A stretch of DNA of 64,000 bases from Ginglymostoma cirratum. Lineage: Eukaryota. The notes beneath the pieces were generated by a model. It did not search any database. It was not told where the DNA came from and saw only the letters and a program-made list of their open reading frames with translations. The translations under genes were made by a program, and so were the position numbers. Shown here piece after piece: positions 2,895-56,699 of the stretch. Each line of letters begins with the position of its first letter. Positions within the stretch are counted from its first letter, which is position 1. The stretch covers positions 64,009,344-64,073,343 of the forward strand of contig JAHRHZ010000012.1 in the NCBI GenBank assembly GCA_024137785.1. Direction: 5' to 3'.

Positions 2895-3004
2895 AGTTTT
2901 CAGTTCTGAGGAAGGGTCACCAGACCTGAAACGTTAATTCTGTTTTTTTTTCCTTTCACAGATGCTGCCAGACCTGCTGAGCTTTTCCAGCAACTTTGTT
3001 TTTG
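2895..3004 (+). mobile_element. Short non-autonomous Penelope-related terminal element (family B) with a hammerhead core
   Basis: CTGAGGA-A-GGGTC-ACCA-GACCT-GAAAC-GTT followed by ...CACAGATGCTGCCAGACCTGCTGAGCTTTTCCAGCA. The same module occurs at 17445-17776, 36210-36355 and 43020-43450. Confidence 0.7.
2902..2939 (+). ncRNA. Minimal type I hammerhead ribozyme motif (putative)
   Basis: AGTT|CUGAGGA|A|GGGUC-ACCA-GACCU|GAAAC|GUU|AAUU: complete conserved core, 5-bp helix II, palindromic ACGU helix III, 4-bp helix I. Activity not shown. Confidence 0.6.
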
Positions 3005-4011
3005 ACAAGTTTTCACTTTCCTCTGGAATGTCATGCTCCAGACCCCATTCAAGACCCTGTGACTAAACAACTATCACCAGCTAAATCCATCAGCTGCTGG
3101 TCTTGGCTGGCTTGTGACTAGGAAACAACTATGAGAATATATTAATGAAATTTTACCAATTTATTTGCCAGGATTTTCAGATGTCTCCACTCTCCTACAA
3201 CTGCCCCCTCTGTGACCCTGTAAATACTCGACCCCAAGAATACAAGCTGCCCCACTAATGCAGAATAGCTGTTAGCAAAGACAACCATGTGTTGAATTCC
3301 ACACTGAAACAGTCAACCCATATCCGTGTGCTGTAGGTAGACCCACAATATCCTGAGGGAGAGAATTGTGTTGGGGTGCAAGGGAAGATTGGGACACTTG
3401 AACTTTTCGAGCTGTAAAGAGTCAGCTGAGGAGTTATCTTATTGAGGCTTACAAGAAATGAACTGATATGGAAAAGGTTAATTCAGAATGTTGCTTCAAA
3501 ATTAACAATGAGTATCATAAGGGATGAAGGTTCAAAACAAGTAGTGGTAACATTGAGAATGCTAGAAAGCTCCTCATTCGCAAAAACTGAGGAGCTATTT
3601 GGAATTTACTTGCAAGTAGCTTTATGCAGGTGAAAAAATCCTCACACCGTTAGGTACAGCAATGGGGGGAGTGAAGGGTTGTCGTGAATGGATGATTTAA
3701 GGTGAGTTAATTGGCAATTCTATATTGATAAGCTAGCAAACTGGATTTAAATGTGATTGTTTCTAATTTGGGAAACTAAATCTGTGGTAGGAGTATGTCC
3801 AGTGAGCAATCAAGTTTTGACACAATCTGAATAACTCAGCTATATCATGATACCTCGAAATATAAGAATAATTTGCTTCTATGATAATCTCCAATTTATA
3901 CAAAGGATAAATTTATATTTAAAATTGTGATCAATGATTGAACAATGTAAGTATAGAAAGCGCCCAAGATTAAATATTTAACATGCTTTATCCATGTTTT
4001 ATCCATATTTT

Positions 4012-4549
4012 AAGGCGTGGGGCTGGATGAACACAGCAGGCCAAGCAGCATCACAGGANNNNNNNNNNNNNNNNNNNNNNNNNNNNNNNNNNNNNNNNNN
4101 NNNNNNNNNNNNNNNNNNNNNNNNNNNNNNNNNNNNNNNNNNNNNNNNNNNNNNNNNNNNNNNNNNNNNNNNNNNNNNNNNNNNNNNNNNNNNNNNNNNN
4201 NNNNNNNNNNNNNNNNNNNNNNNNNNNNNNNNNNNNNNNNNNNNNNNNNNNNNNNNNNNNNNNNNNNNNNNNNNNNNNNNNNNNNNNNNNNNNNNNNNNN
4301 NNNNNNNNNNNNNNNNNNNNNNNNNNNNNNNNNNNNNNNNNNNNNNNNNNNNNNNNNNNNNNNNNNNNNNNNNNNNNNNNNNNNNNNNNNNNNNNNNNNN
4401 NNNNNNNNNNNNNNNNNNNNNNNNNNNNNNNNNNNNNNNNNNNNNNNNNNNNNNNNNNTCCTGTGATGCTGCTTGGCCTGCTGTGTTCATCCAGCCCCAC
4501 GCCTTGTTATCTCGGATTCTCCAGCATCTGCAGTACCTTTTATCTCATC
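4012..4549. mobile_element. Fold-back Penelope-terminal element (family A) spanning the assembly gap
   Basis: Perfect inverted arms 4012-4058 and 4459-4505, nearly identical to the PLE 3' end at 17779-17830. 15-bp direct repeat TTTTATCCATATTTT at 3997-4011 and 4550-4564. Confidence 0.8.
4059..4458. other. Assembly gap (400 N)
   Basis: Run of N. Confidence 1.
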
Positions 4550-5511
4550 TTTTATCCATATTTTGATTGATGCTGTATTTTGTCGCTGACATAAATGTCA
4601 TGCTATGCAGAGAGTTTAACATCAAACTTACCATCGTGGTCACTCATTTTATCTCGTCCTGTTATTGTTTCTTTTTTCAGCTATTTTGAAAGCAATAAGA
4701 AGAAAATAGTTTAGCCAATCTTTGGCAATCAGATTAACCAATGCAACATTACATCACTATGGGCATTGTATTGTATCAGATACTTAAACCTGCCTTTCTT
4801 TCCCCAGATCTCATGATAAAAGTAAGAGAAACGGTGTTGTCATTTCTAATTCAGTCAGTCACAATTCATTAGAAAGAACAAATCAAGATTAATTTTTTGT
4901 CAAATTGTTTGATTGAATCACTTAATTATTTCATTAAATTGGATTCAGAGCTTAATCTTAGTTTCCAATTATTTCTGAAATAATGGAAAAAACACTTCCC
5001 ATTTCTATCTGTATTGGGAGCAAGGAGAGAATGGTGAAAGGAGCTTACATTCTCAGAAGCATTTTTCAATATGAATAAGCTACAGTAAGTATTAACCTTT
5101 GACAGCAGTAGGAAAAAATCTAAATGCTTGGCATGATTCCTATGTTCCACAGACTGAGCAACATAAAAGCTAAAATATTCAGAATTCACAAATTATCTTT
5201 TTTTGTTAACTGAAACAATTAATGGAGGCATTTTTTAAAAGAAACATTGGCTGTTGCAAAACGATTCTCTTTTTTTCTTTGTTTAGGAACATGGGTGAAA
5301 TTTAATCGTGATGAAGAAGCAGGAAACAAAGCAAAAGGGGAACCTTCATTGGGTGATAGGCACCAAATTCCGAGATGAAATCTTAATTTGAAGTTGGTGG
5401 CAGTCAGTTTGGAGATAGAACAGGGTTCCTGACAGCAAATGCTGTGAACCTATTTGTAATGTATTAGTATGTTTTGAATGTTCATTAAAACACAAGTTCA
5501 CCAAATTAAAC

Positions 5512-5659
5512 GAGATAACAACGTGTAGAGCTGGATGAACACAGCAGGCCAAGAAGGCACAGCCTTCAGAAAGGGTCTAGGCCTAATACGTCAGCTTTCC
5601 TGCTCCTCTGATGCTGCTTGGCCTGCTGTGTTCATCCAGCTCCATACCTTGTTATCCCC
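5512..5659. mobile_element. Fold-back Penelope-terminal element (family A), 148 bp, 15-bp TSD
   Basis: Inverted arms GATAACAA..GCTGGATGAACACAGCAGGCCAAG / CTTGGCCTGCTGTGTTCATCCAGC..TTGTTATC. TSD TTCACCAAATTAAAC at 5497-5511 and 5660-5674. Hammerhead core degraded. Confidence 0.85.
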
Positions 5660-6749
5660 TTCACCAAATTAAACATTACCTTTGCAACTTAGTCAGAAGT
5701 GAACACAGGAAACATGCCTTCATGTTTTCACATTCTTGACTGGTTAAAGCTGGCATGCAGTAAGGTAGTCATTGTGATAGATTTGGAATGAGAAGGAGCT
5801 ATAAATCTCCTATAGGGAAGGGGACAGCACAAGGAGAAGAGGTTGGATTGCTTCCTTGAAATGTCAATTGAAGTCAGGTCCCGGCTGCCTGAGAGAGGAT
5901 GGGTCTTTATGGGCCTAAGGAAGAGGGTCCTGGTAGTTAATGGACAATGATTCCTGGGTGTCCAGGGATGGGATGATATTGACAGATAAGGAGGGCTGTG
6001 GCAAATAATAGATTGCTGGAGTGATTGTCAGTAGGTCAAAGATGAGATTGGGATTTAGCCCAGTCTGCATCTGACTGAAGCACACAACCAGAGTTTGACG
6101 GATATGGTTTTCAGCAAAAATGACATGTCTATAGAAACGCCTCAACTCTTCCTATGACAGTCTGGGTGATAATGTTATTTCAAGTGCAGAAACAGCCATA
6201 GTGACGGCATACTTACCTACGCTCAGGTGCTAGATCTAGTTCCATTCTCTTCAGCTTGCTTGTACTGTGTCACTGGAATCATAGGTGGCTCTGCGTCCTT
6301 TTATTAGTTACCTTAGAAACTGAAAGAGTCAGTTTACCTTCTCAGTTTCACTATTTCAATTCGGATCTGTTTTAAAAAGTACAAGCTTTGAAACCACAGA
6401 TTCCATCACAATGCCATCAGATTGTCCCAGGGTTCTATGGAGCCCATGTATGGTGTCTCATTGGTAGCCATTCATAGATGCACGAGGGAGTTTGCCAATG
6501 CCATGTTTTAAAGGGCTGGTTAGTGAGACTTATCACAGATCCCTGAGAGCCAGGTAGTCAGATCTTTGAGTCATTTGCAGTCTTCTCCCTAGTACAAGGA
6601 CTGATAGACTGCACAAATGTGACATCCTAAAAACAGCCAGAAGCTTTCATAAAATGAATTCACACATATTGACAGAATTCAACCTGTCTGTGATCACCAA
6701 GAATTAAGCTTGCAGATGTGTGTTTAATTCCCAGGACTTCAGGCACAGG

Positions 6750-7060
6750 GATAAGATTAGAGAAACTGTGGCTTCTCTCTTCAGAGGAGAGATAGTTGCG
6801 ACTGGGTTTGATAAAGGTCAAAATCATAAATTTGATTAGAATAGATACAGAGAAACTAATCCCACTAGTGGAAGATTTAAAAAGGATACAGACAAAAGTG
6901 ATTGGCGAAAGAAGAACAACAAATGAGGGAAATCCTTTCATGCAGGAAATGGTTACAATCTGCACTGCGCGATTTGAATGGTATGTCAGATGCAGATTCA
7001 AATGTGTTTTATCAAAAAGGATTTGGTAAGCATCTGACAGAAAACAAAAACACTCCCCTT
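6750..7060 (+). mobile_element. Decayed CR1 3' fragment
   Basis: Resembles the ORF2 C-terminus and 3' region of the CR1 copies at 12900-13200. Confidence 0.45.
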
Positions 7061-7091
7061 GCCTTTTGCAGCTCTCTTGAGCTGTCTGTAC

Positions 7092-9391
7092 CGGGGAAAA
7101 CACACTTGACCTCATCCTTACCAATCCGCCAGCTGCAGATGTATCTGACTACGACAGTATCGAGTGACCACTGCGCAGTCCTTGTGGAGATGAAGTCCTG
7201 CCTTCACATTGAGAATACTCTCCATTCTGTTGCATATAATGATCATAGTGCTAGATCAGACAGACTGCAAACAGATTTAGCAACTCAAGGCTGGGAATCC
7301 AGGAGGCATTGTGGGCTGTCAACAGCAGTAGAATTGTGGTACAGCACAACCTGCATCCTCGTAGTTGATCCCCCATTCAACCCATTACCATCAAGCCAGA
7401 GGATCTTTAATGGAGAGTGCTGGAGGGTATACCCAGGAACAGAATCAGGCATACCTAAAAATGAGGTGTCAACCTGGTGAAGCTACCAAACAGGACTACG
7501 TGTGTGCCAAACAACATAAGCAGCATGGGATAGACAGAGTTACGTGATCCCACAATGAATGCACCAGATCTAAGCTCTGCACTCCTGCCATATCCAGTTG
7601 CCATATCTGATGGTGGTGGACAATTAAACAACTCACTAGAGGAGGAGGGTCCCCAAATATCCCCATCCTCAGTGAGGGAAGAGCCCTAAATATCAGTGCA
7701 AAAGATAAGGCTGAAGCATTCGCATCAATCTTCAGCCAGAAGTTTTGAGTGGATGATCTCTTTTGGTCTCCTCTCGTGTTCCTCAGCATCACAGATACCA
7801 TTATTCAGCTAATTCATTTCACTCCATCTAATATCAAGAAACAGTTGGAGATATTGGATACTGCAAAGGCTATGGGTCCTATCAACATTCTAGCAATATT
7901 GCTGAAGTCTTGTGATCCACAACTAACCACACCCCGAGCCAAGCTGTTCCAGAACGGTTACAACACTGGCTTCTATCCAACAATATGGAAAATTGCCCAG
8001 GTATGTTCTGTACAAAATAGCAGGACAAATCCAACTCAACCTATTACTATTTCCCATCAGTCTGCTCTTGATTAACAGTAAAGTAATGGTACTTGTCAAA
8101 AACCGTGCCATCAAGTAGTACCTGTACAGCAATAACCTGCTCAGTGACACCCAGTTTGGGTTCCACCAGGTCCACTCACGTCCTGTTTTCATTACAGCCT
8201 TGGTTTAAACATGGACAAAAGAGCTGAATTCCAGAGTGGCAGCTCTTGATATCAAGGCCACATTCAGCTGAGTGTGGTACCAAGGAGCCCTAGCGAAAAT
8301 GCGTATTGGGGGAAAATCTCCGGTGGTTGGGTCATACCTGACACAAAGGAAAATGGTCGTGGTTGTTGGAGGTCAGCCATCTCAGCTCCAGGGCATCTCT
8401 GCAGGAGTCCCTCAGGGTGGTGTCCTAGGCCCAACCATCCTCAGCTGCTTCACCTATGAGCTTCCCTCCATCATAAGGTTATAAGCGGTGCTGTTCACTG
8501 ATGATTGCACAGTATTGAGCACCATTCATGAGTCCTCCGATCCTGAAGCAGTCCTTTTCAAATGCAACAAGATCTGGACCATATCCAGGCTTGGGCTGAA
8601 AAGTGACAAGTAACATTCATGCCATACAAATGCCACGCAATGACCATCTTCAATAGCAGACAATCTAACCACTGCCCCTTGACATTCAATGGTGTTACCA
8701 TTACTGAATCCCTCACTATCAACATCCTGGGGGTTACCATTGACCAGAAACTCATCTGGACTCACCAAATAAACACAGTGGTCACAAAAGCAGATCATAT
8801 GATAGGAATACTGCGGCAAGTAACTCACTTCCTGACTCCCAAAGCCTGTCCACCATCTACAAAGCACAAGTCAGGAGTGTGATGGGATACTCCCCACTTG
8901 CCTGGGTGAGTGCAGCACCAACAATACTCAAGAAGCTTGACACCATCCAGGACAAACCAACCTGCTGGACTGACACAACATTAATATTCATCCACTCCCT
9001 CCACCACCAATGTTCAGTAGCAGCAGTGTGCACTATCTATGTGATGCATTACAGAAATGTACCAAGGATCCTTAGATAGTACCTTCCAAACCTATGATCA
9101 CTTCTATCCAGAAGGCCAAAAGTAGCAGATACAAAGGAACACTACCATCTGCAAGTTTCCCTTCAAATCACTCATCATCCTGACTTGGAAATATATCATC
9201 CTTCCTTCATTATCACTGTGCTAAAATCCTGGAATTCCCATGGGCATTGTGGGTTAACTTTCTTAAATCTATGTGGATTTCAGCATTTCAGGAAGGCAGC
9301 TCACCACCAGCTTCTCAACAGCAACTGGGATGGGCAATACATGTGACTAGCCAGCGACTCTCATGTCCTACAACAGAATAAGAAAAAAAAA
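7092..9391 (+). mobile_element. 5'-truncated, decayed CR1-group non-LTR retrotransposon (RT domain), distinct from HER1
   Basis: Broken frames give LDTAKAMGP, WKIAQVC, ALDIKATF, SAGVPQGGVLGP, FTDDCT, ILGVTIDQKLIW. Many stops and frameshifts. Ends in an A-rich tail at 9378-9391. Confidence 0.85.
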
Positions 9392-11237: not shown

Positions 11238-13308
11238 TAGAGTTCAAGGTCCATATGTTCCTGTGAGGGTAAAGGGCAAGGTTGGCAGCGGTTGGGAACC
11301 CTGGGTGACAAGAGATATTGAGGCTTTGACCAGAAAAAAAAGGAGGCATAACTCAGGAGCAGGCAGCTGGGATCAAGGAAATCCCTGGAGGTATATAGGG
11401 GATACAGGAGTTTGCTGAAGAAGGAAATCAGGAAGGCAAAAAGGGGGCACTAGGTAGCTTTGGCTGAGAAGATTAAGGTGAATCCAAAGAGATTCTTTAA
11501 GTACATTAAAGGAAAAAAAAACTACAGAGAGAATAGGACCCCTCAAGGACCAAAGTGGACATGTATGCGTGGAATCGAGGAGATAGGTGAGGTCCTCAAC
11601 GACTATTTCTTCTTTGTGTTTACTGTGCAGAAAGACATGAAGACTTGGGAACTTGGGGAAGTTAGTGGCGATATCTTGGGGACAGTCCATATCACAGTGG
11701 AGAAATCTTGGAAGTATTAGACAGTATGAAGATGGATAACTCACCTGGTCCTGATCAGATATGCCTAAGAACCCTGCAAGAAGCTAGAGAAGAAATTGCA
11801 GGAGCCGTGGCTGATATGTTTGCATTATCGTTAACCACGGGTGAGGTCCTGGAAGGCTGGAGGGTAGCAAGTATTGTGCCCTTATGCAAGAAGGGCTGCA
11901 TAGAAAAATGTGGAAATTATAGACCAGTAAGCTTAACATGTGTGGTAGGTAAGCTACTTGAGAAGATTCTGAGGGATAAAATATACGTGCATTAAGAAAG
12001 ACAGCATTTGATTAGGAGTAGTCAGCATGGCTTCGTGTGTAGGAGATCATGCCTCACAAATTTGTTAGAGTTCTTTGATTAAGAAACCAGGAAGGTTGAT
12101 GAGGACAGGATGGCAGAATTAGTCTATAAGGATTTCAGTAAGGCCTTTGATAAGGTTCCACATGGTAGGCTGCTCTGGAATGTTAGATCGCATGGAATCT
12201 AGGGAGAGTTGGCAAATTGGATACACAATTGATTTGATGGTAGGAAGCAGAGGTTAATAGTGGAAGGATGTTTGTCTGACTGGAGGCCTGTGATTAGTGG
12301 TGTGCCTCAGGGTTGATGCTGGGTCCATTGCTGCTTGTTATCTATATTAATGATTTGGATGAGAATGTACAAGGCATGATTAGTAAGTTTGCGAATGACA
12401 CTAAAATAGGCGGTATCGTGGACAGTGAGGAAGGTTATCAGAAATTGCAGCAGGATCTTGATCAGCTGGGGAAGTCGGCCAAGAAATGGCAAATGGAGTT
12501 TAATATAGATAAGTGTGAGGTGTTGCATTTTGTAAAGTCAAATCAAGATAAGAGATTCATGGTGAATGGTAGCGCCTTAAGGAGTGAAGTGGAACAGATG
12601 GACCTTGGAGTTCAGGTGCATGGATCTATGGTAGTAGAGTCACGTGCAGCCAGGGCAGTGAAGAAGGCTTTTGGCACACAGGCCTTTATCAGTCAGGGCA
12701 TCAAGTATAGCAGTTGGGAAGTTATGTTGCACAGGGAGTTGGTGAGGCCGCACTTGGAATATTGTGTTCAGTTTTGGACACCTTACTATGGGAAGGATGT
12801 TATTAAACTGGAAAGAGTACTGAAGAAATTTATAAGGATATTGTCAGGATTCAAGGGACTGAGTTATAGGGAGAGGTTGGACAAGCTAGGACCTTTTTCC
12901 TTAGAGTGAGGGAGACTGAAGGGGGATTTTAAAGAAGTGTATAAGAGCATGAGAAGCATGGATAGGGTGAATGCACTCAGTGTTTTTCCCAGAGTTGGAG
13001 AATCGAAGACTAGAGGGCATCAGTTTAAGGTAAGGTAGGAAAGAATACATGGAAACCTAAGCGCTAACTTTTTTACACAGAGGGTGGTACGCATATGGAA
13101 TAAGCTGCCAGCAGAAGTGATTAAGGCAGATACATTAACAACACTTAAAATGCACTTGGATGAATGCATGAGCAGGAAAGGTTTAGAAGGCTATGGGCGA
13201 AGTGCAGGGAAATAGGGTTAGATTGTATGTACATTTGGTCGGCATGGGCCAGTTGGGTTGAAGGGCCTGTCTCTGTGCTGTAGGACTCTATGACTGTATA
13301 ACTCTGTG
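11238..13308 (+). mobile_element. 5'-truncated CR1 (HER1-like) LINE, ORF2 pseudogene
   Basis: ORFs 11460-12909 give NPKRFFKYIKGK, SPGPDQI, GNYRPVSLTCVVGKLLE, LGPLLLVIYINDLD, KFANDTKIGG, LVRPHLEYCVQFW. 3' tail GAAGGGCCTGTCTCTGTGCTGTAGGACTCTATGACT. Confidence 0.92.
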
Positions 13309-16300: not shown

Positions 16301-17444
16301 ACTTTTTGCCACTAGGTCTGCAGCAAGAATTTTGACTGTGACACTGAGTTTTTTTCTTGTCAGGATCCTTCCAGGCTGGAACAGGTAACATACCCAATAT
16401 CTCCCAGTTTGTTCTCAATGCAGGAGCAGAAAGATGACAAATACTCTGAGACGATTTTATGGAATTGCGTCGGATTGGTGGAAGGAGGTGGACTACATGT
16501 GTAGTTTTGCAGGATAACAGGCTTCCTCATGGTGCAGGGTGCCATCAACTGTATATAGTCTATCCTGTACCTATTTTATGATTACATGATTCTATGCATT
16601 ACTTATCTAGCAGTTACCAGTTGTACAGGAATTTACAGTTGACATTAACAATATTATGATGATTTTGTTGTAATCACTGATCCTAGCTTTCATTCACCAA
16701 GTTACTCATCTAAAGTCATTGTTTGATTTACGATATTGTGCTGTAATCAGTAACAATGAATGTTCAGGCCAAGTCTGTACAAGTAAAATGCATAACCAAT
16801 TAGACACCTCACTCTTTCGTCACTGCATAAAATGGATACAATTGGCAATTGTAAGGCATATATTTAAACTAAATATTAACTACAAGTAGTCTGTGAAGAC
16901 ATAGTAAGCACATGTGCCTAATGCTAATCCAGAACAATACTATCATTTCTATTCATGGGTGGCTTAAATTATCCAATTGTATTTTAGATAATGTTATCCT
17001 AATTTAAACTTAAATGTGGATGAATCACTAGACCTTTGCTAACCAAAAGCACATGAAAAATAATGGCTGGGGAAATCTTAATTATTTCTTTCAATAAGCT
17101 AATCAGGTTGGAGACACTTCCTCAGAGAGTTATCTAAGTCAGATACATTCCAGTCAGAAGCATGGTACAGTTGCACCCCCATCAAACTCCCATAAAGGGT
17201 CCAGGACAAAAGTCCAATTACTCTACCACTGAACAGAATATAAAAAGCAGCAAAGAATGAGCAAAAAATTAATAAAGAGGTAAAAGTAACAGCATGGCAG
17301 AAAGCTAACCAGAAGTATGAAAACAGATAGTAAGAGTTTCTATTAATATTTAAAGAAGAGTTAACAAAAGAGCATTTGTCATTTTGAAAGTCAGACTGCA
17401 GACTTAGTAACGGAAAACATGGAGATGGTAGATGAAATAAACAA

Positions 17445-17776
17445 AAAACAGAAGTTGCTGGAAAAGCTCAATAGGTCTGGCAGCATCTGCGAAGAGAAGT
17501 CAGAGTTAACATTTCAGGACTAGTGACCCTCCCTCAGATGAGTCCATTCTGAGGAAGCGTCACTGGACTCAAAACATTAACTTTGTTTTCTCTCCATAGA
17601 TGCTGCCAGACCTGCTGAGCCTTTGCAGCAACTTATCATTTTGTTTCTGATTTACAGCATCTGCAGTACATTTGGTTTTTAAACAAAAATGAGAAATTGC
17701 TTGAGTAAATCAACAGGTCTGGCAGCATGTGGAGAGAAAACAAAGTTAATGTTTTGAGTCCAGTCACCCTTCCCAG
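17445..17776. mobile_element. Family-B fold-back element (17445-17680) plus an adjacent partial family-B copy (17681-17776)
   Basis: Inverted arms GTTGCTGGAAAAGCTCAATAGGTCTGGCAGCATCT / AGATGCTGCCAGACCTGCTGAGCCTTTGCAGCAAC around two decayed, oppositely oriented CTGAGG.. cores. Tail CAGCATCTGCAGTAC. Confidence 0.7.
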
Positions 17777-17836
17777 TTAACAAGGCGTGGGGCTGGATGA
17801 ACACAGCAGGCCAAGCAGCATCATAGGAGCAGGAAA

Positions 17837-17872
17837 ACTTGACGTTTCGGGCCTAGACCCTTCATCAGAAAT
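17837..17872 (-). ncRNA. Minimal type I hammerhead ribozyme motif in the PLE 3' end
   Basis: Minus strand reads AUUU|CUGAUGA|A|GGGU-CUAG-GCCC|GAAAC|GUC|AAGU, with all conserved core positions present. Penelope-like elements are known to encode minimal hammerheads. Confidence 0.75.
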
Positions 17873-18170
17873 GGGGGAGGGGAAGAGGGTTCTGAAATAA
17901 ATAGGGAGAGAGGGGGAGGCGGATAGAGGATGGATAGAGGAGAGGATAGGTGGAGAGGAGGCAGACAGGTCGAAGAGGCGGGGATGGAGCCAGTAAAGGT
18001 GAGTGTAGATGGGGGGGTAGGGAGGAGATAGGTCAGTCCAGGGAGGACGGACAGGTCAAGGGGGCGGGATGATGTTAGTAGATAGGAGATGGGTGTGGGG
18101 TTTGAGGTGGGAGGAGGGGATAGGTGAGAGGAAGAACAGGTTAGGGAGCTGGAGATGAGCTGGGCTGGTT

Positions 18171-19883
18171 TTAGGATGCGGTTGGGGGAGGGGAGATTTC
18201 GAAACTTGTGAAATCCACATTGATGCCATTGGGCTGCAGGGTTCCCAGGCTGAATATGATTTGTTGTTCCTGCTGCCTTCGGGTGGCATCACTGTGGCAT
18301 TGCAGGAGGCCCAGGATGGATGTGTCGTCTGAGGAATGGGAGGGGGAGTTGAAATGGTTTGCGACTGGGAGATGCAGTTGTTTGTTGCAAACTGAGCGCA
18401 GGTGTTCTACAAAGTGGTCCCCAAGCCTCCGCTTGGTTTCCCCGATGTAGAGGAAGCCACAACGGGTACAGCGGATGCAGTATACCACATTGGCAGATGT
18501 GCAGGTGAACATCTGCCTGATGTGGAAAGTCTTCTTGGGGCCTGGGATTGGGGTGAGGGAGGAGGTGTGGGGGCAGGTGTAGCACTTCCTGCGGTTGCAG
18601 GGAAAAGTGCCGGGTGTGGTGGGGCTGGAGGGGAGTGTGGAGCGGACAAGGGAGTCGCGGAGGGAGTGGTCCCTCCGGAAGGCAGATAAGGGTGGGGAGG
18701 GAAAGATGTCTTTGGTGGTGGGGTCTGATTGCAGATGGCAGAAGTGTCGGAGGATGATGCGTTGGATCCGGAGTTTGGTGGGGTGGTACGTGAGGAAGAG
18801 GGGGATTCTTTTTTGGTTATTATTGAGGGGACGGGGCGTGAGGGATGTGTTACGGGAAATGCGGGAGACACGGTCGAGGGCGTTCTCGACCACTGCGGGG
18901 GGGAAGTTGCGGTCCCTGAAGAATGAGGACACCTGAGATGTACGGGAGTGGAATGTCTCATCCTGGGAGCAGATGCAGTGGAGGCGAAGGAATTGGGAAT
19001 AGGGGATGGCATTTTTGCAGGAAGGTGGGTGGGAGGAGGTGTATTCCAGGTAGCTGTGGGAGTCAGTGGGCTTGAAATGGACATCGGTTTCTAGGTGGTT
19101 ACCCGAGATGGAGACAGAGAGGTCCAGGAAGGAGAGAGAAGTGTTGGAGATGGTCCAGGTGAACTTCAGGTTGGGGTAGAAGGTGTTGGTGAAGTGGATG
19201 AACTGTTCGAGCTCCTCGTGGGAGCACGAGGCGGCGCCGATGCAGTCATCAATGTAACGGAGAAAGAGGTGGGGTTTAGGGCCAGTGTAGGTACGGAAGA
19301 GGGATTGTTCCACGTAACCTACAAAGAGGCAGGCATAGCTTGGGCCCATGCGGGTACCCATGGCCACACCATTTGTCTGTAGGAATTGGGAGGAATTGAA
19401 AGAGAAGTTGTTGAGGGTGAGGACGAGTTCGGCTAAGTGGATGAGGGTGTCGGTGGAGGGGGATTGGTCAGTTCTGCTGGACAGGAAGAAGCGGAGGGCC
19501 TTTAGGCCATCTGCATGGGGAATACAGGTGTATAGGGACTGGACGTCCATGGTAAAAATGAGTTGATGGGGACCGGGGAATTGGAAGTTCTGGAGGAAGT
19601 GGAGGGCGTGGGTGGTGTCATGGAGGTAGGTAGGGAGTTCCTGGACCAAGGGGGTGAAAATGGAGTCTAGGTAGGTGGAGATGAGTTCGGTGGGGCAGGA
19701 GCAGGCGGAGATAATGGGTCGACCAGGGCAGTCAGGTTTGTGGATTTTGGGAAGGAGATAGAAGCAGGCGGTGCAGGGTTGGGGAACGATGAGGTTGGAG
19801 GCGGTGGGTGGGAGGTCACCTGAGGTGATGAGGTTGTGGAAGGTTTGGGAGATGATGGTTTGGTGCTCGGGGGTGGGGTCATG
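18171..19883 (-). CDS. Penelope-like reverse transcriptase / GIY-YIG endonuclease, N-terminally truncated
   Basis: YLLPKIHK..PGRPIIS, FTMDVQSLYTCIP, GVAMGTRMGPSYA, LRYIDD, FLDL, Cys linker CNRRKCYTC..FTC, VVYCIRCTRCGFLYIGET..EH..NH..E..GIN. The first ~29 aa of track ORF 18171-19970 lie outside the element. Confidence 0.9.
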   Translation of the reverse strand, partial: HDPTPEHQTIISQTFHNLITSGDLPPTASNLIVPQPCTACFYLLPKIHKPDCPGRPIISACSCPTELISTYLDSIFTPLVQELPTYLHDTTHALHFLQNFQFPGPHQLIFTMDVQSLYTCIPHADGLKALRFFLSSRTDQSPSTDTLIHLAELVLTLNNFSFNSSQFLQTNGVAMGTRMGPSYACLFVGYVEQSLFRTYTGPKPHLFLRYIDDCIGAASCSHEELEQFIHFTNTFYPNLKFTWTISNTSLSFLDLSVSISGNHLETDVHFKPTDSHSYLEYTSSHPPSCKNAIPYSQFLRLHCICSQDETFHSRTSQVSSFFRDRNFPPAVVENALDRVSRISRNTSLTPRPLNNNQKRIPLFLTYHPTKLRIQRIILRHFCHLQSDPTTKDIFPSPPLSAFRRDHSLRDSLVRSTLPSSPTTPGTFPCNRRKCYTCPHTSSLTPIPGPKKTFHIRQMFTCTSANVVYCIRCTRCGFLYIGETKRRLGDHFVEHLRSVCNKQLHLPVANHFNSPSHSSDDTSILGLLQCHSDATRRQQEQQIIFSLGTLQPNGINVDFTSFEISPPPTAS

Positions 19884-27447: not shown

Positions 27448-29954
27448 TTGTACTATAGAAACTGCAATAGTCAGTGGGAAATTGGGAAACAAATTTGTAA
27501 GGAGATCTCAGTTATCTTTAAGAATAATAGGGTTGTTATGATAGGGGATTTTACCTTTCCAAACTTAGACTGAGACTGCCATAGTGCTTAGGGCTTGGAT
27601 GGATAAGAATTTGTTAAGTTTGTACAAAAATATTTTCTGGTTCTGGTAGGCGGATGTACCTACCAGAGAAGATGCAAAACTTGACCTACTCTTGGGAAAT
27701 AAGGCAAGGCAGGTGACTGAGGTGTCAGTGGGGGAGCACTTTGGGGCCATTGAGCATAATTCCATTAGTTTTAAAAAAGTGATGGAAAAGGATAGACGGG
27801 ATCTAAAAGTTAAAGTTCTACATTGGAGGAAGGTCAATGACGGTGCTAGACAAGAACTTTCCAAAGTTGAGGACTGGGGACGGATGTTCACAGGAAAAGG
27901 GGCAGCTGGGAAATAAGAAGCCTTCAAAAATGAGATGACGAGAGCCCAGAGATAGTACTTTCCTGTTAGGGCGAAGGGTGAGGCTGATAGTTGTAGGGAT
28001 TGCTGGATGAATAGAGAAATTGAGGTTTTAGTCAAGAATAAGAAAGAGGCATATGTCAGGATAGACAGGAGGGGTTGAGTGAATCCTTAGAAGTGTGTAA
28101 TGACAGTAGGAATATACTTAAGAGGGAAATCAGGAGGGCAAAAAGGGAACGTGACATAGCTTTGGCAAATAGGGTTAATGAGAATCGAAAGGGATTCTAC
28201 AAATACATTCAAAGATAAAAGGGTAACTAGGGAGAGAATAGGGTCCCTTAAAGACCAGCAAGGCCACCTATGTGTGGAACTGGAAGAGATACTAAACGAG
28301 TATCTTGCATCAGTGTTTACTGTGGAGAAGGAAATGGAAGATAGAGAATGTGGGGAAATAAATTGCGACTTCTTGAAAAGTGTCCATATTAGAGAGGAGG
28401 AGGTGTAGACATCTGATGATGCATAAAGGTGGATAAATCCCCAGGTTCTGATCAGGTGCGCCCTAGAGCTCTGTGGGAAGCTAGGGAAGAGATTTCTGGG
28501 CCCCTTGCTGAGATATTTGTATCATTGATAGCCACAGGTGAAGTGCTGGAAGACTGGAGGTTGGCTACCGTGGTGCCACTATTTAAGAAAGGTGGTAAGG
28601 AAACGCCCCGGAACTTTAGATTGATAAGCCTGACTTCAGCGGTGGGCAAGTTGTTAGAGGGAATCCTGAGGGACAGGATTTATATGTATTTGGAAAGGCA
28701 AGAACTGATTATGGATAGTTAACATGGATTTATGAGTGGGAAATCATGTCTCACTGACTTTCTTGAGGATTTTGAAGAAGTAATAAAGAGGATTGTTGAG
28801 GGCAGAGTGGTGGATGTGATCTATATGAACTTCTATAAGGCATTCGACAAGGTTTCTCATGGCAGCCTGGTTAGCAAGGTTAGATCACATGGAATACAGG
28901 GAGAACTAGCCATTTGGATACAGAACTGCCTCAAAGTTAGAAGACAGAAGGTGGTGGTGGAGTGTTGTTCTTCAGGCTGGAGGCTTGTGACCAGAGGTGT
29001 GCCACAAGGATTGATGCTGGATCCACTGCTTTTTGTCATTTATGTAAATAATTTGAATGAGAACATCGGAGGTACGGTTAGTAAGTTTGCAGATGACACC
29101 AAAATTGGAGGTGTAGTGGACAGCAAAGAAGGTACCTCAGCGTACAACGGGACCTTGATCAGGTGGGACAACAGGCCGAGGAGTGGCAGATGGAATTTAA
29201 TTTAGATAAATGTGAGGTGCTGCATTTTGGAAAGGCAAATCAGGGCAGGACATATACACTTAATGGTAAGGTCCTGGGGTGTGTTGCTGAACAAAGAGAC
29301 CTTGGAGTACAAGTGCATTGTTCCTTGAAAATGGAGGCACAGGTAGGAACGTAAATAAAGTATTTGGTACGCTTGCCTTTATTGGTCAGTGCACTGAGTA
29401 TAGGAGATGGGAGGTCATGTTGCGGCTGTACAGGATCATGGTTAGGCCATTTTTGGAATACTGCATGCAATTCTGATTTCCCTGCTACATGAAAGATGTT
29501 GTGAAACTTGAAAGAGTTCAGAAAAGATTTACAAGAATGTTCCAGCTTTGGAGGGCTTGAGCTGTCAGGAAAGGATGAATAGGCTGGGGCTATTTTCCCT
29601 GGTGCATCAGAGGCTGAGGATTATCGAGGTTTATAAATCCATAAGGAGCCTTGATAGGGTGAATAACCAAGGCCTTTTCCCTGTGGTGTGGGTGTCCAAA
29701 ACCAGAGGGCATTGGATTAAGATGAGAGGAGACAGATTTAAAAGGGGCCAACACTTTCATACAGAGGGTAGTGCTTGTATAAAATGAGCTGCCTGAGGAA
29801 GTGGTGGTGGCTGGTACATTTAAAAGGTATCTGGATGTGTATATGAATAAGAAGAGTTTACAGTGATACAGGCCAAATGCTGGCAAGTGGGACTAGAAAA
29901 CTTTAGGCTATCTGGTCGGCATGGACGAGTTGGGCCAAAGGGTCTGCTTCCGTA
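27448..29954 (+). mobile_element. 5'-truncated CR1 (HER1-like) LINE, ORF2 pseudogene (end of endonuclease + RT)
   Basis: IGDFT(F)P, LDLLLGN, DKSPGSDQV, FRLISLTSAVGK, FYKAFDKVSH, GVPQGLMLDPLLF, SKFADDTKIGG. 3' tail GGTCGGCATGGACGAGTTGGGCCAAAGGG. Confidence 0.92.
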
Positions 29955-30589: not shown

Positions 30590-30942
30590 GATAGATTCAT
30601 AGAATCATTGAAGTGTGGAAGCAGGCCATTCAGCCCATCGAGTCACACTGACCCTCCAAAGAGCATCCCACACAGACCTACCACTCTATCTTATCCCTGT
30701 AACCTTGCATTTCCAATGGCTGATCCACCAGCCTGAACATTTCTGGACACGATGTGCAATTTAGGATGGCTAATCCACCTAACCTGCACATCTTTGAACT
30801 GTTGGTGGAAACCGGACCATCCAGAAGAAACCAGCGCAGACACAGGGAGAATGTGCAGACTCCACTTAGACAGTGCTCAATGCTGGAAACAAACCCAGGT
30901 CCCTGACACTGTGAGACAGCAGTGCTAGCCACAGCCACTATG
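30590..30942 (-). mobile_element. HE1-type SINE
   Basis: tRNA-like head GTGGCTAGCACTGCTGTCTCACAGTGTCAGGGACCTGGGTTTG, core GGAGTCTGCACATTCTCCCTGTGTCTGCG, CR1-like tail. Confidence 0.85.
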
Positions 30943-31911
30943 TCACCAGAGTAGATGTTTGTACATGCACTGTCTGTCAGGCGCGTACATCATCTTGGAT
31001 GATGGCAAGCTTCTTGAGTGTTGTTGGAGCTGCATCTATCCAGGCAAGTGAGAAGTATTCCATCACACTCCTGACTTGTGCCTTGTAGATGGTGGACAGG
31101 CTTTGGGGAGTCAGGAGGTGAGTTACTCACTGCAGTATTGATGAGGATGATATCTCAAATTTGGTTCCTTCAGTAATTGCTACAGGCTCAGTCTAGCAAC
31201 TATGTCCTTTAAGACTAAGAGCATGGTATGTTGGTGGTGCTGCTGAGCCAGACTTCATGGTGGACAGTGAAGTCCCCCAGCAAGGGTATATTCTACCCCT
31301 CTTCCTCTCTCAGTGCATTTGGATGCTGTTCAATGTGGAGGAGTAATAATTCATCACCTGTGGGGAGGATGCCCATGTTAATCAGCAGGAGGTTTCCTTT
31401 CCCATGTTTGACCTGATGCTAAGAGACTTCTTGTAGACCAGAGTCAATATTGAGGATTGCCTCTTGCACACAACTATGCCATCTCAGCTGCTGGCTCTGT
31501 CCTGCTGGTGCGACAGGCCATAATCATGGTTGGTGATGGCATTATCTGGAACATTGTATGTTGGTTTTGATTCCGTGAGTATGACTGTCAGGATGCTGCT
31601 TGACTAGTCTTTGAGACAGCTCTTCCAATTTTGGCACTAATCCTTAGATGTTTGTATGGGGAGTTTTGCGAGGCTGACTGGACTGAGTTTGCAGTTGTCG
31701 CTCCTGATGCCTCTGTCAATGCCAAGTGGTCCATCTAGTTTCATTCTTTTTTTTTGAGACTTGTAGCAATTGATAGAACTGAGTGGCTTAATAGTCCATT
31801 TCGGAGGACAGTTAAAAGTCAAACACATTACTGTGCACCTGGAGTCACATATAGGCCAGACCAGGTAAGGACAGTAGCTTTTCCTTCCCTCACAAACATT
31901 AGTGAACTATA

Positions 31912-32073
31912 AGAGATAACAAGGTGTAGAGCTGGATGAACACAACAGGCCAAGCAGCATCAGAGGAGCAGGAAAGCTGACATTTCGGGTCTGGACCCTT
32001 CTTCAGAAAGGGTTCATCCAGCTCTACACCTTGTTATCTCAGATTCTCCAGCATCGGTAGTTCCTACTATCCC
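31912..32073. mobile_element. Fold-back Penelope-terminal element (family A), 162 bp, 13-bp TSD
   Basis: Inverted arms GAGATAACAAGGTGTAGAGCTGGATGAAC / GTTCATCCAGCTCTACACCTTGTTATCTC. TSD TTAGTGAACTATA at 31899-31911 and 32074-32086. Minus-strand CUGAAGA-A-GGGU-CCAG-ACCC-GAAAU-GUC at 31979-32006. Confidence 0.88.
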
Positions 32074-35527: not shown

Positions 35528-35651
35528 GATAGTAAGATGCTGGAGGAACACAGTACATCAAGCAGCATCAGAGGAGCAGGAAAGCTGGTGTTTTGGGTCA
35601 GGACCTTTAAGAAGGGTCCAGACCTGAAACGTTAGCTTTCCTGCTCCTCTA
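35528..35651. mobile_element. Fold-back family-A element in intron 1
   Basis: AGAGGAGCAGGAAAGCT..GGGTC / GACCTGAAACGTTAGCTTTCCTGCTCCTCT inverted arms. The hammerhead CUG is lost at the symmetry centre. Possible TSD ATTGCC(T/A)GT. Confidence 0.75.
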
Positions 35652-36209
35652 ATTGCCAGTTCATCTGTAAGAATTTCAGGTTACAAATTGACTAAACCAC
35701 ACTCACCAAGCAGAGTGATGGGGTTGATGAGGGAATGAAAGTTGTGTTCACCTGGTATTGGATGTTGAAGCAACCTATTTTAGACTGAGGAATGGCATGA
35801 GATGATTGAGGTAAGGGTAGGTGTTGTGTATCCATGGAATATGTACTTTCATTAAAAATGAGATCTCCAGAGATGAGGAAGGAACAAGCCATTGATTATT
35901 TCAATGTACTTTGCGCACATACAATACACTAATACAGTCCTATGGGGTAGAAAAGGTTAAAAATGTGCAACCCTTCAAGGAAACCAACTTTTTTAATCCA
36001 TCTTAAATGGTGGTTGACACATGCATGCCTTAAGCTTGTGACCCTGGTTCTAACTCTGCTAAAGGGGGGAGGGGGAGAGGGAACCATCTCTCCAGTGTCT
36101 ACCCTATTAAGCCCCTCTAGATTTCTTCATTTGAAGAATATTTTATGTAAAAGTGCATAGAAACTGTCCCTATAGGGACAATCCCTTAAATCCTGGAATA
36201 GCCCTAATA

Positions 36210-36355
36210 AACATGCTGGAGAAACTCAGCAGGTCAGGCATCCTTTGTGGAGGGAAAGAACAGTTTGTTTTGGGTCTGATATGGCTGTTCAGGGGTCTAT
36301 AGAAATCTTATTGGACTCATCAGTTTGAACATTGTCTATTCTACCTCCACAGATG
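36210..36355. mobile_element. Decayed family-B element
   Basis: TGCTGGAGAAACTCAGCAGGTCAGGCATC..GTGGAG / CTCCACAGATG. Confidence 0.5.
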
Positions 36356-40689: not shown

Positions 40690-42900
40690 TAAACAAGGTG
40701 CTAATGGAGGGGGAAAAGTCTTGAGTCTATTGAGAAGCAAAGTATTTGATAAACTAATGGGACTAAAAGCAGATATCCCTAGGACCTGATGACAGCTCTC
40801 ATCCAAGGTTTTTAAAAGTGGCTGCAGAGATAGTGGAGGCATTGGGCAAAATATTCCAGAACTCTTTGGAATATGTGTTGCCCCTGTTTAAGAAGGGAGT
40901 GAGACAAAGCCAGAAGACAGCCAAACACATGTTGGGCAAGTGCTAAGTCCTCAAAGGATGAAATAACAGGACACTTGAAAGCTTTAATGCAAGCTGACAA
41001 TCAAAACTATTATTTTTTTCACAACTATGACAAACTTGACAGTTCTTTTGACATAATGAGCAGCTGCCAAAGGGGGACTGGCAGAATATTTTTTGGAAAT
41101 CTGAAGGTGCCACCTGAGAGGTTTGTGAACCAGATGCAAGTTCACTCTAATGGGGTATTGATTTAGTCTGGATTAAGAATAGGTAAACAAAAACTAGGAA
41201 CACAAACTCTGTCCCTTCTAGCCTGCTATGCCATACAAAGAGGATCAAGAATAATAATCTCCACACAATTCTTGCTTTGTCTACATTTCCCTTGATATCT
41301 CTGAATACCAAGTATTAATCTTTCATAGAATCCCTACAATGTGGAAACAGGCCCTTCAGCCCAACAAGTCCACACCAAACCCCAGAGCATCCCACCCAGA
41401 CCTATCCCCCTATAACCCACCTAATCTACACCTCCCTGAACACTATGAGCAATTTAGCATGGCCAATCCACCTAACCTACACACTTTTGGACTGCGGGGG
41501 GGTGGAAACCAGAGCACTGAGGAAAGCCACACAGACACTGGGAGAATGTGCAAACTCCACACAGACAGTTGCCTGAGGCTGGAATCAAACCTGGGTCTCT
41601 GGCACTGTGAGGCAGCAGTGCTAACCACTGTGCCACTGTGAATATAGTCAATAACTTGGGCATTTGCAAATCTTCTTTCAACAGTCAACCAGTGGGAAGT
41701 ATTTTCCCCTAGGTTCTAAATGGTTTACACCATTTCTGGCACTTGTGACTCCTCTTTTAGCCTCTTCAACCAGGGAAACATTCCCTGGATCTTGTCTATC
41801 CAGTCCTGTTAATTATTTCTGTCCAATTTCTCCTATCTTCTGAACTCTTTTGTCTGGGTCTGTACTCACTAATCTCAACATTCCTGGTATTGGCCCAGTA
41901 AACCATTACTGCACTATAGTCAGCATACACTCCCTCCCTTTTGGGTAGGGAGCCCAGAACTGCACAAAATACTGAGACCCTGTATAACTAGCAGGACAAC
42001 CTTACTTTTGAACTTTGAATCCCCTTGCTATGAAGGTACTTGCTTTTCTAATTGTTGCATCTGCTTGTTTTTTCATTGGTGTATAAAAACACTTAGATTC
42101 CTCTGTACATCCATGTTTTCCAATCTATCACCACTCTGCTGGTTTTAACACTTGTTGGCATATGAATATAATGTGAATAAATGCCAAGTATTTGCCCACA
42201 TGCAACTTGGCTAGATTGCCCTGAATTTTTGTTGCATCCTCATGCTCAATCCCACAAAAGACAGTTGAAATTTAAAAATTTTTTTTTGGGTTGGAAAGAT
42301 GTAACTAGTCCACTACCACAAAAATCAGTCCTAGGGCTGCAATTATTGACTACTTACATTCTTGCCTTGGAGGGAGTAAAGTCAATGTATCCAAACATGC
42401 TGATGCACAAGTAGGGAACGTTGTGACGAGGACTAGAATCTGCAAGGGAATATAGATGGATTGAGGTGGGCAAAAGTTTGGCAGATGGCTATTAATTCAT
42501 TGTTGGATGAGATGAATCAAAAGGCAAACATTATTTAAATACTCAAGCTTTTTAAAAAGAAAATCTGGTAGTTGTGCACAAATATTACCATGCAGGCACA
42601 GTCGGTGACTAAAGCGGCAAATGGAATTTTGGCCCTTATTGCAAGTGGATTGCGAATTTTTTAAAGGATACATTCCTATAATTGTATAGGACTTGATTTT
42701 GATTTATTGTCAGGTGTACCAAAGTACAGTGAAAAGCTGAGTAGTATTGTGTACAGTGTTGTTCCCTGCTTTGGAAATAGGTACAGAAAATAAGCTACTC
42801 AAGATTAACTAGGCTGATTCCCAGAATGAAGGGGTTGACTTAGCAAGAGCAGCCGAGGCCTTTATTGATTAGCGTTTCGTCGAATGAGGGTGATCCTTCC
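40690..42900. mobile_element. Cluster of decayed CR1 fragments in both orientations in intron 2
   Basis: GLKA.SLGPD..HP.FLK.VAAEIVEAL-like DNA (40760-40850, +); GGGAGCCCAGAACTGCACAAATACT (-); GCAAATGGAATTTTGGCC (+). Boundaries approximate. Confidence 0.55.
41324..41640 (-). mobile_element. HE1-type SINE
   Basis: Head GTGGCACAGTGGTTAGCACTGCTGCCTCACAGTGCCAGAGACCCAGGTTTGATTCC, core GGAGTTTGCACATTCTCC, tail GGGCTGAAGGGCCTGTTTCCACATTGTAGGGATTCTATGA matching the CR1 tail at ~13255-13295. Confidence 0.9.
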
Positions 42901-43019: not shown

Positions 43020-43450
43020 TGAAACAAACTGGTGGAGAAACTCTGACCTGGCAGCATCTGTGGAGAGAAAACAGTTAATGTTTCAAGTCTAGTGACCCTT
43101 CAGGATTTTTCCTGACTCTCTTCCCAAGCCTAATTACATGGTTGGTTGGGAACTCATACCTCCTAAGGCCTTGTTTAAGTGCTTTGTGAACTTGATTAGA
43201 GATCAATATTTAAACAGTTCAGAAATGTTACATGTTTTGGAATCTAAACCCGGATTTCAATTTTTAATTGGACTGCAAAGAAACTCCATTATTCCCCTAA
43301 GCAAAGTTAATGTTTTCTCCTTGAGTTTTCCCTAAAGTTAACAGTAACCCTCATGAAGGGGCAGTAGACTCGACATTAACTCCTCTTTCTCTCCACAGAC
43401 GCTGCCAGACCTTTTGAGTTTCTCCAGCATCTGTAGTTCTGTTTGCTTTA
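43020..43450. mobile_element. Inverted pair of family-B arms (43020-43105 -, 43350-43450 +) separated by ~245 bp
   Basis: TGGCAGCATCTGTGGAGAGAAAACAGTTAATG versus CATTAACT..TTTCTCTCCACAGACGCTGCCA. Confidence 0.65.
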
Positions 43451-44899: not shown

Positions 44900-45190
44900 C
44901 ATAGTTCATGGTAGAATCCCTACAGTGTGGAAACAGGCCCTTTGGCTCAAGTCCACAGCATCCCACCCAGACCTATTTTCCCCCATAACCCACCTAATCT
45001 ACACATTCCTGAACATTATAGACAATCTAACGTGGCAAATCTGCCTAGCCTGAACATCTTTGGACTGTGGGAGGAAACCAGAGGAAACAGACACGAGGAG
45101 AATGTGCAAACTCCTCAGTCTCTCCAGGATGAGAATTGAACCCATGCATGGTGCTGAGAGGCAGCAATGCTAACCACTGTGCCACCCTGC
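44900..45190 (-). mobile_element. HE1-type SINE
   Basis: Similar to 41324-41640 along its length. Confidence 0.85.
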
Positions 45191-45514
45191 AAATGGCTGA
45201 TGTGGATACACAATTCTACGTAGTACTTATTTAGAGCAGGTTTTAATAGCTGAAATCTAGGAACCCATTTTGAATGAAAACTTAAAGAACTACACATTTT
45301 GGGTACAAATACAATATTTCACTCACTGATTGTGGTTTCCATTTCAAACAGAAAGGAACTTTCCCCAACCCCAGCTGATACCTCTTGTAGCAAAAGTCAA
45401 TGTTCCCAATGAATGGGTTAGGGGTTTATTTTGTGCTCTTATTTCTGTAATAAAGCAATGATGTTTTATAGTTGAATGGGAATGGCTGACTTTTTTTCTT
45501 GGAATCTTTTCCAG

Positions 45515-56616: not shown

Positions 56617-56654
56617 CTCTTGACCTGCTGTGTTCATCCAGCCCCATGCTTGTT
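56617..56654 (+). mobile_element. 38-bp extreme 3' tip of the Penelope-like element with a 13-bp TSD
   Basis: CTTGACCTGCTGTGTTCATCCAGCCCCATGCTTGTT flanked by ACCCAGGCAGATG at 56604-56616 and 56655-56667. Confidence 0.75.
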
Positions 56655-56699
56655 ACCCAGGCAGATGATATGGGTTGAAATGCTACTGTGGCAGATGTC

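What the first reader, a model, noticed from the sequence alone, without database searches (positions are those of the whole stretch)
17837..17872. Intact minimal hammerhead ribozyme core at the 3' end of a young Penelope-like element
Seen: the minus strand reads AUUU-CUGAUGA-A-GGGU(CUAG)GCCC-GAAA-C-GUC-AAGU. This gives the full catalytic core, a 4-bp helix I, a 4-bp helix II, an extra A between A9 and G10.1, and a loop-less palindromic helix III (ACGU). Established: Penelope-like elements encode minimal type I hammerheads with palindromic helix III that are thought to act as dimers, and an extra A at that position is tolerated in the CChMVd hammerhead. Inference: self-cleavage after GUC (between 17841 and 17840) processes element transcripts.
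Basis: partly seen in the sequence, partly recalled or inferred. Interest (0 to 1): 0.75.

Follow-up and report, generated by a model that had tools for sequence, protein, structure and literature searches.

The report
Minimal hammerhead in shark Penelope retrotransposon
This is a real but well-known kind of small RNA motif, predicted to cut itself, carried by a very abundant jumping gene in a shark-like genome; the new detail is that it likely forms the first 36 letters of the element's transcript, and most copies seem to come from uncut RNA.

Summary
The motif is there exactly as described (17872-17837, minus strand). It lies in the 3' pseudo-LTR of a 5'-truncated Penelope-like element with a Neptune-type linker; the 28-nt core has 22,605 exact genomic copies. 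The class has been known since 2014, and the extra A and palindromic 15.2-16.2 pair are published consensus features (PMC4209133). It is a new member of a known kind.

What I add: helix I starts on an Inr-like A (17872) with a TATA-like box at -31. A second family in the genome has TATAAA/CATAAAA near -30 and the same layout. Copies end abruptly there: 22 of 65 end at 17870-17877 and 0 of 43 at 17878-17889, and exact-match counts halve over 9 nt. Across the predicted cut only 5.8% are lost. So the motif likely forms the 5' end of the transcript, and uncleaved RNA is likely the main insertion template, as shown in vitro for anole PAc.

Within the young family, core G5 mutates at nearly the control rate. 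Covariation shows only between families. Cleavage was not tested, the active fold is thermodynamically disfavoured, and RNA-seq was uninformative.

The parts
17837..17872 (-). Minimal type I hammerhead motif: helix I AUUU/AAGU, core CUGAUGA, extra A, helix II GGGU-CUAG-GCCC, GAAA, palindromic ACGU, GUC
   Evidence: Sequence; matches the published metazoan PLE consensus; descriptor hits far above shuffles
17840..17841 (-). Predicted self-cleavage site after C17 (nt +32 from A17872)
   Evidence: Inferred from hammerhead numbering; no clear genomic or RNA-end footprint
17868..17874 (-). Inr-like CCA(+1)TTTC; A17872 is the likely transcription start and also the first base of helix I
   Evidence: Inr consensus recalled; copy 5' ends pile up here; full-length copy L171 starts at this A
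17897..17903 (-). TATA-like TATTTAT at -31
   Evidence: Sequence; TATA consensus recalled; the second family has TATAAA/CATAAAA at about -30
17779..18170 (-). 3' pseudo-LTR region; it ends at or just short of the first of two family 3' end points (+99), and the optional ~33-nt tail is absent
18171..19883 (-). 5'-truncated PLE ORF: RT, CX4CXXC linker, GIY-YIG-type endonuclease; uninterrupted frame that stops ten codons earlier than the sister copy L184
19884..19892 (-). 5' copy of a 9-bp target-site duplication (AACTGGGAA)
17770..17778 (-). 3' copy of the target-site duplication; the insertion sits at the 5' edge of a decayed second-family hammerhead copy

Best explanation
The motif is a minimal hammerhead of a Penelope-like retrotransposon that likely forms the first 36 nucleotides of the capped transcript from the pseudo-LTR promoter and is predicted to cut only slowly, as a dimer and with protein help. 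In a tandem source element, transcription would start at the A of helix I (TATA-like box at -31, Inr-like at +1), run through the ORF (ATG at +172) and on into the downstream pseudo-LTR, so one RNA would hold two hammerheads that can pair through ACGU. The RT would start inside the RNA at the tail (+99 or +132/133) and copy mostly uncleaved RNA. Starts in the 5' copy give ~100-135-bp insertions that end at +1; starts in the 3' copy give long 5'-truncated insertions such as this one. Cleavage at +32 would be a minority or late event that removes the cap or releases unit-length RNA. Shown: motif, element context, copy end points. Inferred: transcription start, dimer, cleavage and its purpose. 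This particular copy is a passive remnant.
For: The motif matches the published consensus. pLTR-ORF-pLTR units exist (L171, L172). 5' ends: 22 of 65 at 17870-17877, 0 of 43 at 17878-17889, 2 of 88 at 17837-17843. Genome counts fall 71,441 > 48,687 > 42,947 > 35,161 over 9 nt, then only to 32,955 over the next 4. Second family: 43 of 48 copies lack upstream element sequence and lose similarity beyond 6 nt before C3, and the 5 long ones carry TATAAA (3) or CATAAAA (2) near -30. Two 3' end peaks 33-34 nt apart (26 and 23 of 127) match the two internal RT starts of PAc, whose hammerhead needs protein and is dispensable for insertion in vitro (PMC11167929). Between families the core is kept while helix II and helix I pairs change. 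The active dimer scores -5.1 kcal/mol against -9.3 and -33.8 for inactive folds.
Against: No cleavage or 5'-end mapping was possible: unstranded poly(A) RNA-seq showed no start or end pile-up. Within the young family G5 mutates at nearly the control rate and no compensatory pair change was seen in 47 copies. Helix I is only 2-3 bp in many copies. A cap-derived G could not be shown. The ATTT step of the count also loses T-run length variants, and some sampled copies belong to one head-to-head event. D. virilis Penelope has a TATA-less internal promoter, so the TATA reading has no precedent in the papers I saw.
Confidence: 0.62

Rival explanations
1. Cleavage is an obligatory processing step (Cervera and De la Pena model): both hammerheads cut, unit-length RNA is released and perhaps circularised, and this RNA is the template that yields tandem copies.
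For: Core kept across families and phyla. Losses are somewhat higher just 3' of the cut (8.5%, 7.8%, 5.8%) than just 5' of it (3.6%). 11 of 99 copies end at 17831-17836. Tandem units exist. A circular template would leave no end at the cut.
Against: The dominant hard 5' end is at +1, upstream of the cut, so those templates were uncleaved. The excess at +34 to +41 coincides with an AAGCTT palindrome that could favour head-to-head joints. PAc hammerhead mutants insert normally in vitro. Naiads thrive without a hammerhead.
Confidence: 0.2
2. The sequence is kept for a non-catalytic role (downstream promoter element, or RNA fold bound by the RT) and no longer cleaves in sharks.
For: It overlaps the promoter region +1 to +32. 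The minimum-energy fold buries the core. Helix I is weak in many copies. No RNA ends were seen at the site.
Against: All catalytic positions are kept across unrelated families whose helix II differs. Related minimal motifs cleave as dimers or with protein.
Confidence: 0.12
3. The pile-up at 17870-17877 is an RT stall or repair hot spot (edge of the hammerhead fold, C-run) or the fixed end of a short non-autonomous master, not a transcription start.
For: A C-run begins there; junctions are messy, with short duplications and head-to-head joints; no cap signature.
Against: The same edge occurs in a second family without that C-run, again about 30 nt behind a TATA box. The cliff is one-sided (0 of 43 just upstream). 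Full-length L171 starts at the same base.
Confidence: 0.06

Closest known systems
Minimal type I hammerheads (min-HHR) in pseudo-LTRs of metazoan Penelope-like elements (Cervera and De la Pena 2014, PMC4209133)
   Same: Core, G10.1-C11.1, extra nucleotide after A9, palindromic 15.2-16.2, short helix I, no helix III loop, place in the pLTR, mostly solo dispersed copies
   Different: Shorter helix II (4 bp) than most listed rows; tens of thousands of exact copies against about 4,000-9,000 reported for coelacanth and Xenopus; no shark in the supplement file I could search; position at a likely transcription start not described there
PAc, Poseidon PLE of Anolis carolinensis (Frangieh et al. 2024, PMC11167929)
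   Same: Hammerhead in the pLTR; two 3' end points that define a tail; both-strand extension would explain head-to-head pairs; no reads ending at the cut; uncleaved RNA as template
   Different: The PAc ORF starts in stem II, whereas here the main ATG is at +172 behind short upstream frames; this element has a Neptune-type cysteine linker; no biochemistry here
Penelope of Drosophila virilis (Schostak et al. 2008, PMC2377424)
   Same: Transcription starts inside the pLTR made by partial tandem arrangement; ~34-bp tail
   Different: TATA-less internal promoter and a 75-nt intron there; here a TATA-like box lies upstream of +1 with the hammerhead directly at +1, and no intron was seen among the best-supported joints
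Non-LTR retrozymes of animals (PMC7229834 listing; bioRxiv 10.64898/2026.07.22.740005 passages)
   Same: Hammerhead-bearing, pLTR-related short repeats
   Different: Retrozymes are head-to-tail tandem arrays; the short copies seen here are dispersed, solo or head-to-head

Membership tests
PLE minimal type I hammerhead | Core CUGANGA-H ... GAAA-N-N-U-H with G10.1-C11.1 | tested here: met
   against the consensus line
PLE minimal type I hammerhead | Extra nucleotide between 9 and 10.1; palindromic 15.2-16.2; no loop III | tested here: met
   A17861 (47 of 47 long copies); ACGU
PLE minimal type I hammerhead | Located in the pLTR of a PLE, repeated on both sides of the ORF in full units | tested here: met
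   L171 and L172 carry a same-orientation upstream copy; L172 also has the downstream one
PLE minimal type I hammerhead | Covariation in helices I and II | tested here: inconclusive
   None within 47 copies of this family. Between families pair 10.2-11.2 is G-C, U-A or A-U and pair 2.3-1.3 is U-G or G-C, but the U-A and A-U rows came from a pairing descriptor and are few
PLE minimal type I hammerhead | Self-cleavage as a dimer | not testable with these tools
   Energy model disfavours the active dimer; RNA-seq uninformative
EN+ Penelope-like element | Single ORF with RT and C-terminal GIY-YIG | tested here: met
   RVT_1 E=1.4e-6, just under the curated cut-off; sister copy L184 has RVT_1 and GIY-YIG above its cut-off
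EN+ Penelope-like element | Partial tandems, inverted 5' copies, optional 30-40-bp tail | tested here: met
   features as described
Neptune clade | CX2-5CXXC linker between RT and EN (shared with Nematis) | tested here: met
   CNRRKCYTC in the ORF; definition
Neptune clade | RT phylogeny placing it in Neptune | not tested
   No tree built; clade name rests on the linker alone
Canonical hammerheads in Rfam | Match to an Rfam hammerhead model | tested here: not met
   No hammerhead among 16 matches at E<=5

The most novel reading that the evidence does not exclude
In these shark PLEs the initiator and hammerhead helix I are one sequence, so the ribozyme works as a self-decapping switch at +32: capped, uncut RNA is translated and reverse-transcribed, while protein-assisted dimer cleavage removes the cap and the upstream AUG to shut expression down or release unit-length RNA. 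The essential TATA box lies outside the transcript, which would explain why tandem pseudo-LTRs are needed. Inr-like letters before helix I in several published rows suggest the layout may be general.
Probability: 0.3. Interest if true: 0.6.

Novelty: new member of a known kind. Interest (0 to 1): 0.33.

Why it matters
As a ribozyme it is ordinary: PLE minimal hammerheads are known from fish, coelacanth, frog and reptiles. The value lies in scale. About 100,000 young copies record where the template RNA began and where the RT started. They point to a start at the hammerhead's first base and to uncut templates, which bears on the open question of what PLE hammerheads do (called unclear in PMC8557442) and gives exact coordinates for CAGE, cyclic-phosphate sequencing and cleavage assays.

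Tried and rejected
Rfam scan: no hammerhead; the MIR hits at 17443-17770 are head-to-head repeat copies, all below gathering scores.

Cap-derived G before +1: G is the commonest non-template base (3,062 G, 1,852 A, 826 T). In 30 of these loci many Gs come from short local duplications or head-to-head joints, and one is a point change in a long copy. Not accepted as a cap signature.

Footprint of cleavage in copy ends: no step at +33. A mild excess at +34 to +41 has a rival cause (palindrome); inconclusive.

Excess core conservation among copies: 0 changes at nine non-CpG core positions in 47 copies looked suggestive. Genome-wide, G5 was 0.57% vs 0.65%, and A6 0.78% vs 1.46% with a control probably inflated by a GCT repeat. 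Weak at best.

RNA-seq: run X19 is unstranded and 79-88% of reads run on into unlike sequence; no start or end pile-up, and almost no depth beyond this copy's 3' junction. X20 had 13 and 0 reads. Contig runs X1 and X6 cannot show ends.

Lunse et al. 2017 is not held; PMC5785220 was an unrelated paper. Earlier-findings look-ups by sequence and by full wording found nothing. No RT tree, covariance model or structure prediction was run.

Full report
Observation. It is not chance: no match in 100 shuffles of the window; 40 descriptor hits in 758,733 unmasked bases (window plus five fetched 200-kb blocks, masked parts left out) against 0-3 in 20 shuffles; and 22,605 exact copies of the 28-nt core in the 4.36-Gb genome against 0 for the control. 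A 31-nt piece just downstream has 90,622 exact copies. Rfam gives no hammerhead match.

The element. Upstream lies an open frame with an RT match, a CX4CXXC linker and a GIY-YIG-type end; the sister copy L184 scores both Pfam domains. The best named protein hits are from Rhincodon (91%), Stegostoma (85%) and Chiloscyllium, so the host is shark-like. The linker is typical of Neptune and Nematis PLEs (PMC8557442 passages); I built no tree. The copy is 5'-truncated: relatives continue upstream of 19887 while the window does not. A 9-bp target duplication bounds it. Two of 20 loci fetched for their RT 5' part (L171, L172) show a same-orientation upstream pseudo-LTR with a hammerhead 1.3-1.4 kb before that point. 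In L171 the ORF starts 171 nt after the A of helix I.

Known class. Cervera and De la Pena 2014 (PMC4209133; main text parts 1-2 of 4, supplement file 2 part 2 of 3 and a term search; file 1 could not be searched) describe this motif in metazoan PLEs, including fish Neptune elements. They list the extra nucleotide and the palindromic 15.2-16.2 pair as consistent features, and found monomers inactive and dimers weakly active. Frangieh et al. 2024 (PMC11167929; parts 1-2 of 4) show that the anole PAc hammerhead cleaves only with protein, is not needed for insertion in vitro, and that RT starts at two internal sites that define the tail. Lunse et al. 2017 was seen only as a title in a reference list; the CChMVd precedent is recalled. 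Searches found no paper on shark PLE hammerheads, and none on a TATA/Inr-hammerhead overlap; the library lacks most subscription papers.

Where copies end. I collected 127 copies by the downstream tail only (46 from pattern-chosen loci, 81 from unselected sequence) and dropped 24 with N beside the breakpoint. Of the rest, 22 of 65 end at 17870-17877, 0 of 43 at 17878-17889, 2 of 88 at 17837-17843 and 11 of 99 at 17831-17836; some belong to the same head-to-head event. Genome-wide exact counts agree. Extending the core 5' gives 71,441, then 48,687 (+ATTT, -31.9%; includes T-run variants), 42,947 (+C, -11.8%), 35,161 (+4, -18.1%) and 32,955 (+4, -6.3%). Around the predicted cut the 4-nt steps cost 8.5%, 7.8%, 5.8% (across the cut) and 3.6%, against roughly 0.6-0.8% point mutation per base. 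The 3' ends peak at +99 (26 of 127) and +132/133 (23 of 127), like the two PAc starts.

Why +1 looks like a transcription start. A17872 sits in CCATTTC, an Inr-like word, with TATTTAT at -31 (both consensus motifs recalled). A second hammerhead family in the genome repeats the layout: 43 of 48 copies lack upstream element sequence and similarity fades beyond 6 nt before C3, while the 5 long copies carry TATAAA (3) or CATAAAA (2) about 30 nt before an Inr-like CAGTT whose A opens helix I. L171 begins at this same A. D. virilis Penelope also starts in its pLTR but from a TATA-less internal promoter (PMC2377424 passages). A cap-derived G was looked for and not accepted.

Selection and folding. 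In 47 of the 127 copies long enough to avoid breakpoints, nine non-CpG core positions were invariant, but no compensatory change occurred and helix I was often 2-3 bp. Genome-wide, G5 is changed in 0.57% against 0.65% at a context-matched G; A6 in 0.78% against 1.46% at a control that is probably inflated. So inserted copies decay almost neutrally. The structural signal lies between families: helix II pairs G-C, U-A or A-U, and helix I pairs U-G or G-C, around an unchanged core. The monomer prefers a fold that buries the core (-9.3 kcal/mol, z -1.4). The active dimer scores -5.1 against -33.8 for an inactive duplex, in line with a need for protein help.

RNA. One poly(A) run gave 38,900 reads on the L172 5' region, unstranded, 88% running on into unlike sequence, with no start or end pile-up. 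At 98% likeness there was almost no depth beyond this copy's 3' junction. These data neither show nor exclude cleavage.

Verdict. A genuine, ordinary PLE minimal hammerhead in a dead truncated copy. Most likely it opens the pLTR transcript, is a slow protein-assisted dimer ribozyme, and is usually uncut when the RNA is copied; cleavage and its purpose remain inferred. New member of a known kind; interest 0.33.

Noticed in passing
window 2900-2995, 17444-17770, 36196-36277, 43355-43435: Short copies of a second PLE-type family with its own hammerhead (CUGAGGA-A-GGGUC...GACCC-GAAACGUU, helix I AGUU/AACU); head-to-head pairs form the long hairpins that give weak MIR matches.
   Followed up: partly
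window 5504-5656, 31905-32071, 35532-35653, 56606-56658: Short solo or head-to-head copies of this or sister subfamilies, 45-135 bp, the longer ones starting near the hammerhead's 5' edge.
   Followed up: yes
one search hits in blocks C2a and C2b: A further hammerhead type with a 6-7-bp helix II (GUUAC...GUAAC) and 5-bp helix I, 2 of 40 hits; its parent element was not identified.
   Followed up: no
window 17821-17865 (-) and L171 2633-2719: An AUG inside the core (+8) opens a 14-codon frame whose stop overlaps a second short frame ahead of the main ORF at +172; older subfamilies (CUGAAGA) lack the first AUG.
   Followed up: no
PMC4209133 supplement file 2 alignment: Several rows (Schistosoma, Nasonia, Ixodes, Camponotus, Ciona, Xenopus, Trimeresurus) have UCA(G/U)U-like letters just before or in helix I; read by eye, not tested against chance.
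   Followed up: no
L192, L195, L198, L206, L216: 5' junctions often carry short duplicated pieces of the element start, as from template slippage during repair.
   Followed up: partly
window 11666-12909 (+), similar DNA at 29007-29133: Broken RT frames of another, CR1/L2-like retrotransposon (label recalled from the translation, not searched).
   Followed up: no
window 30600-30949, 41326-41645, 44912-45194: A three-copy dispersed repeat of about 300 bp, SINE-like.
   Followed up: no
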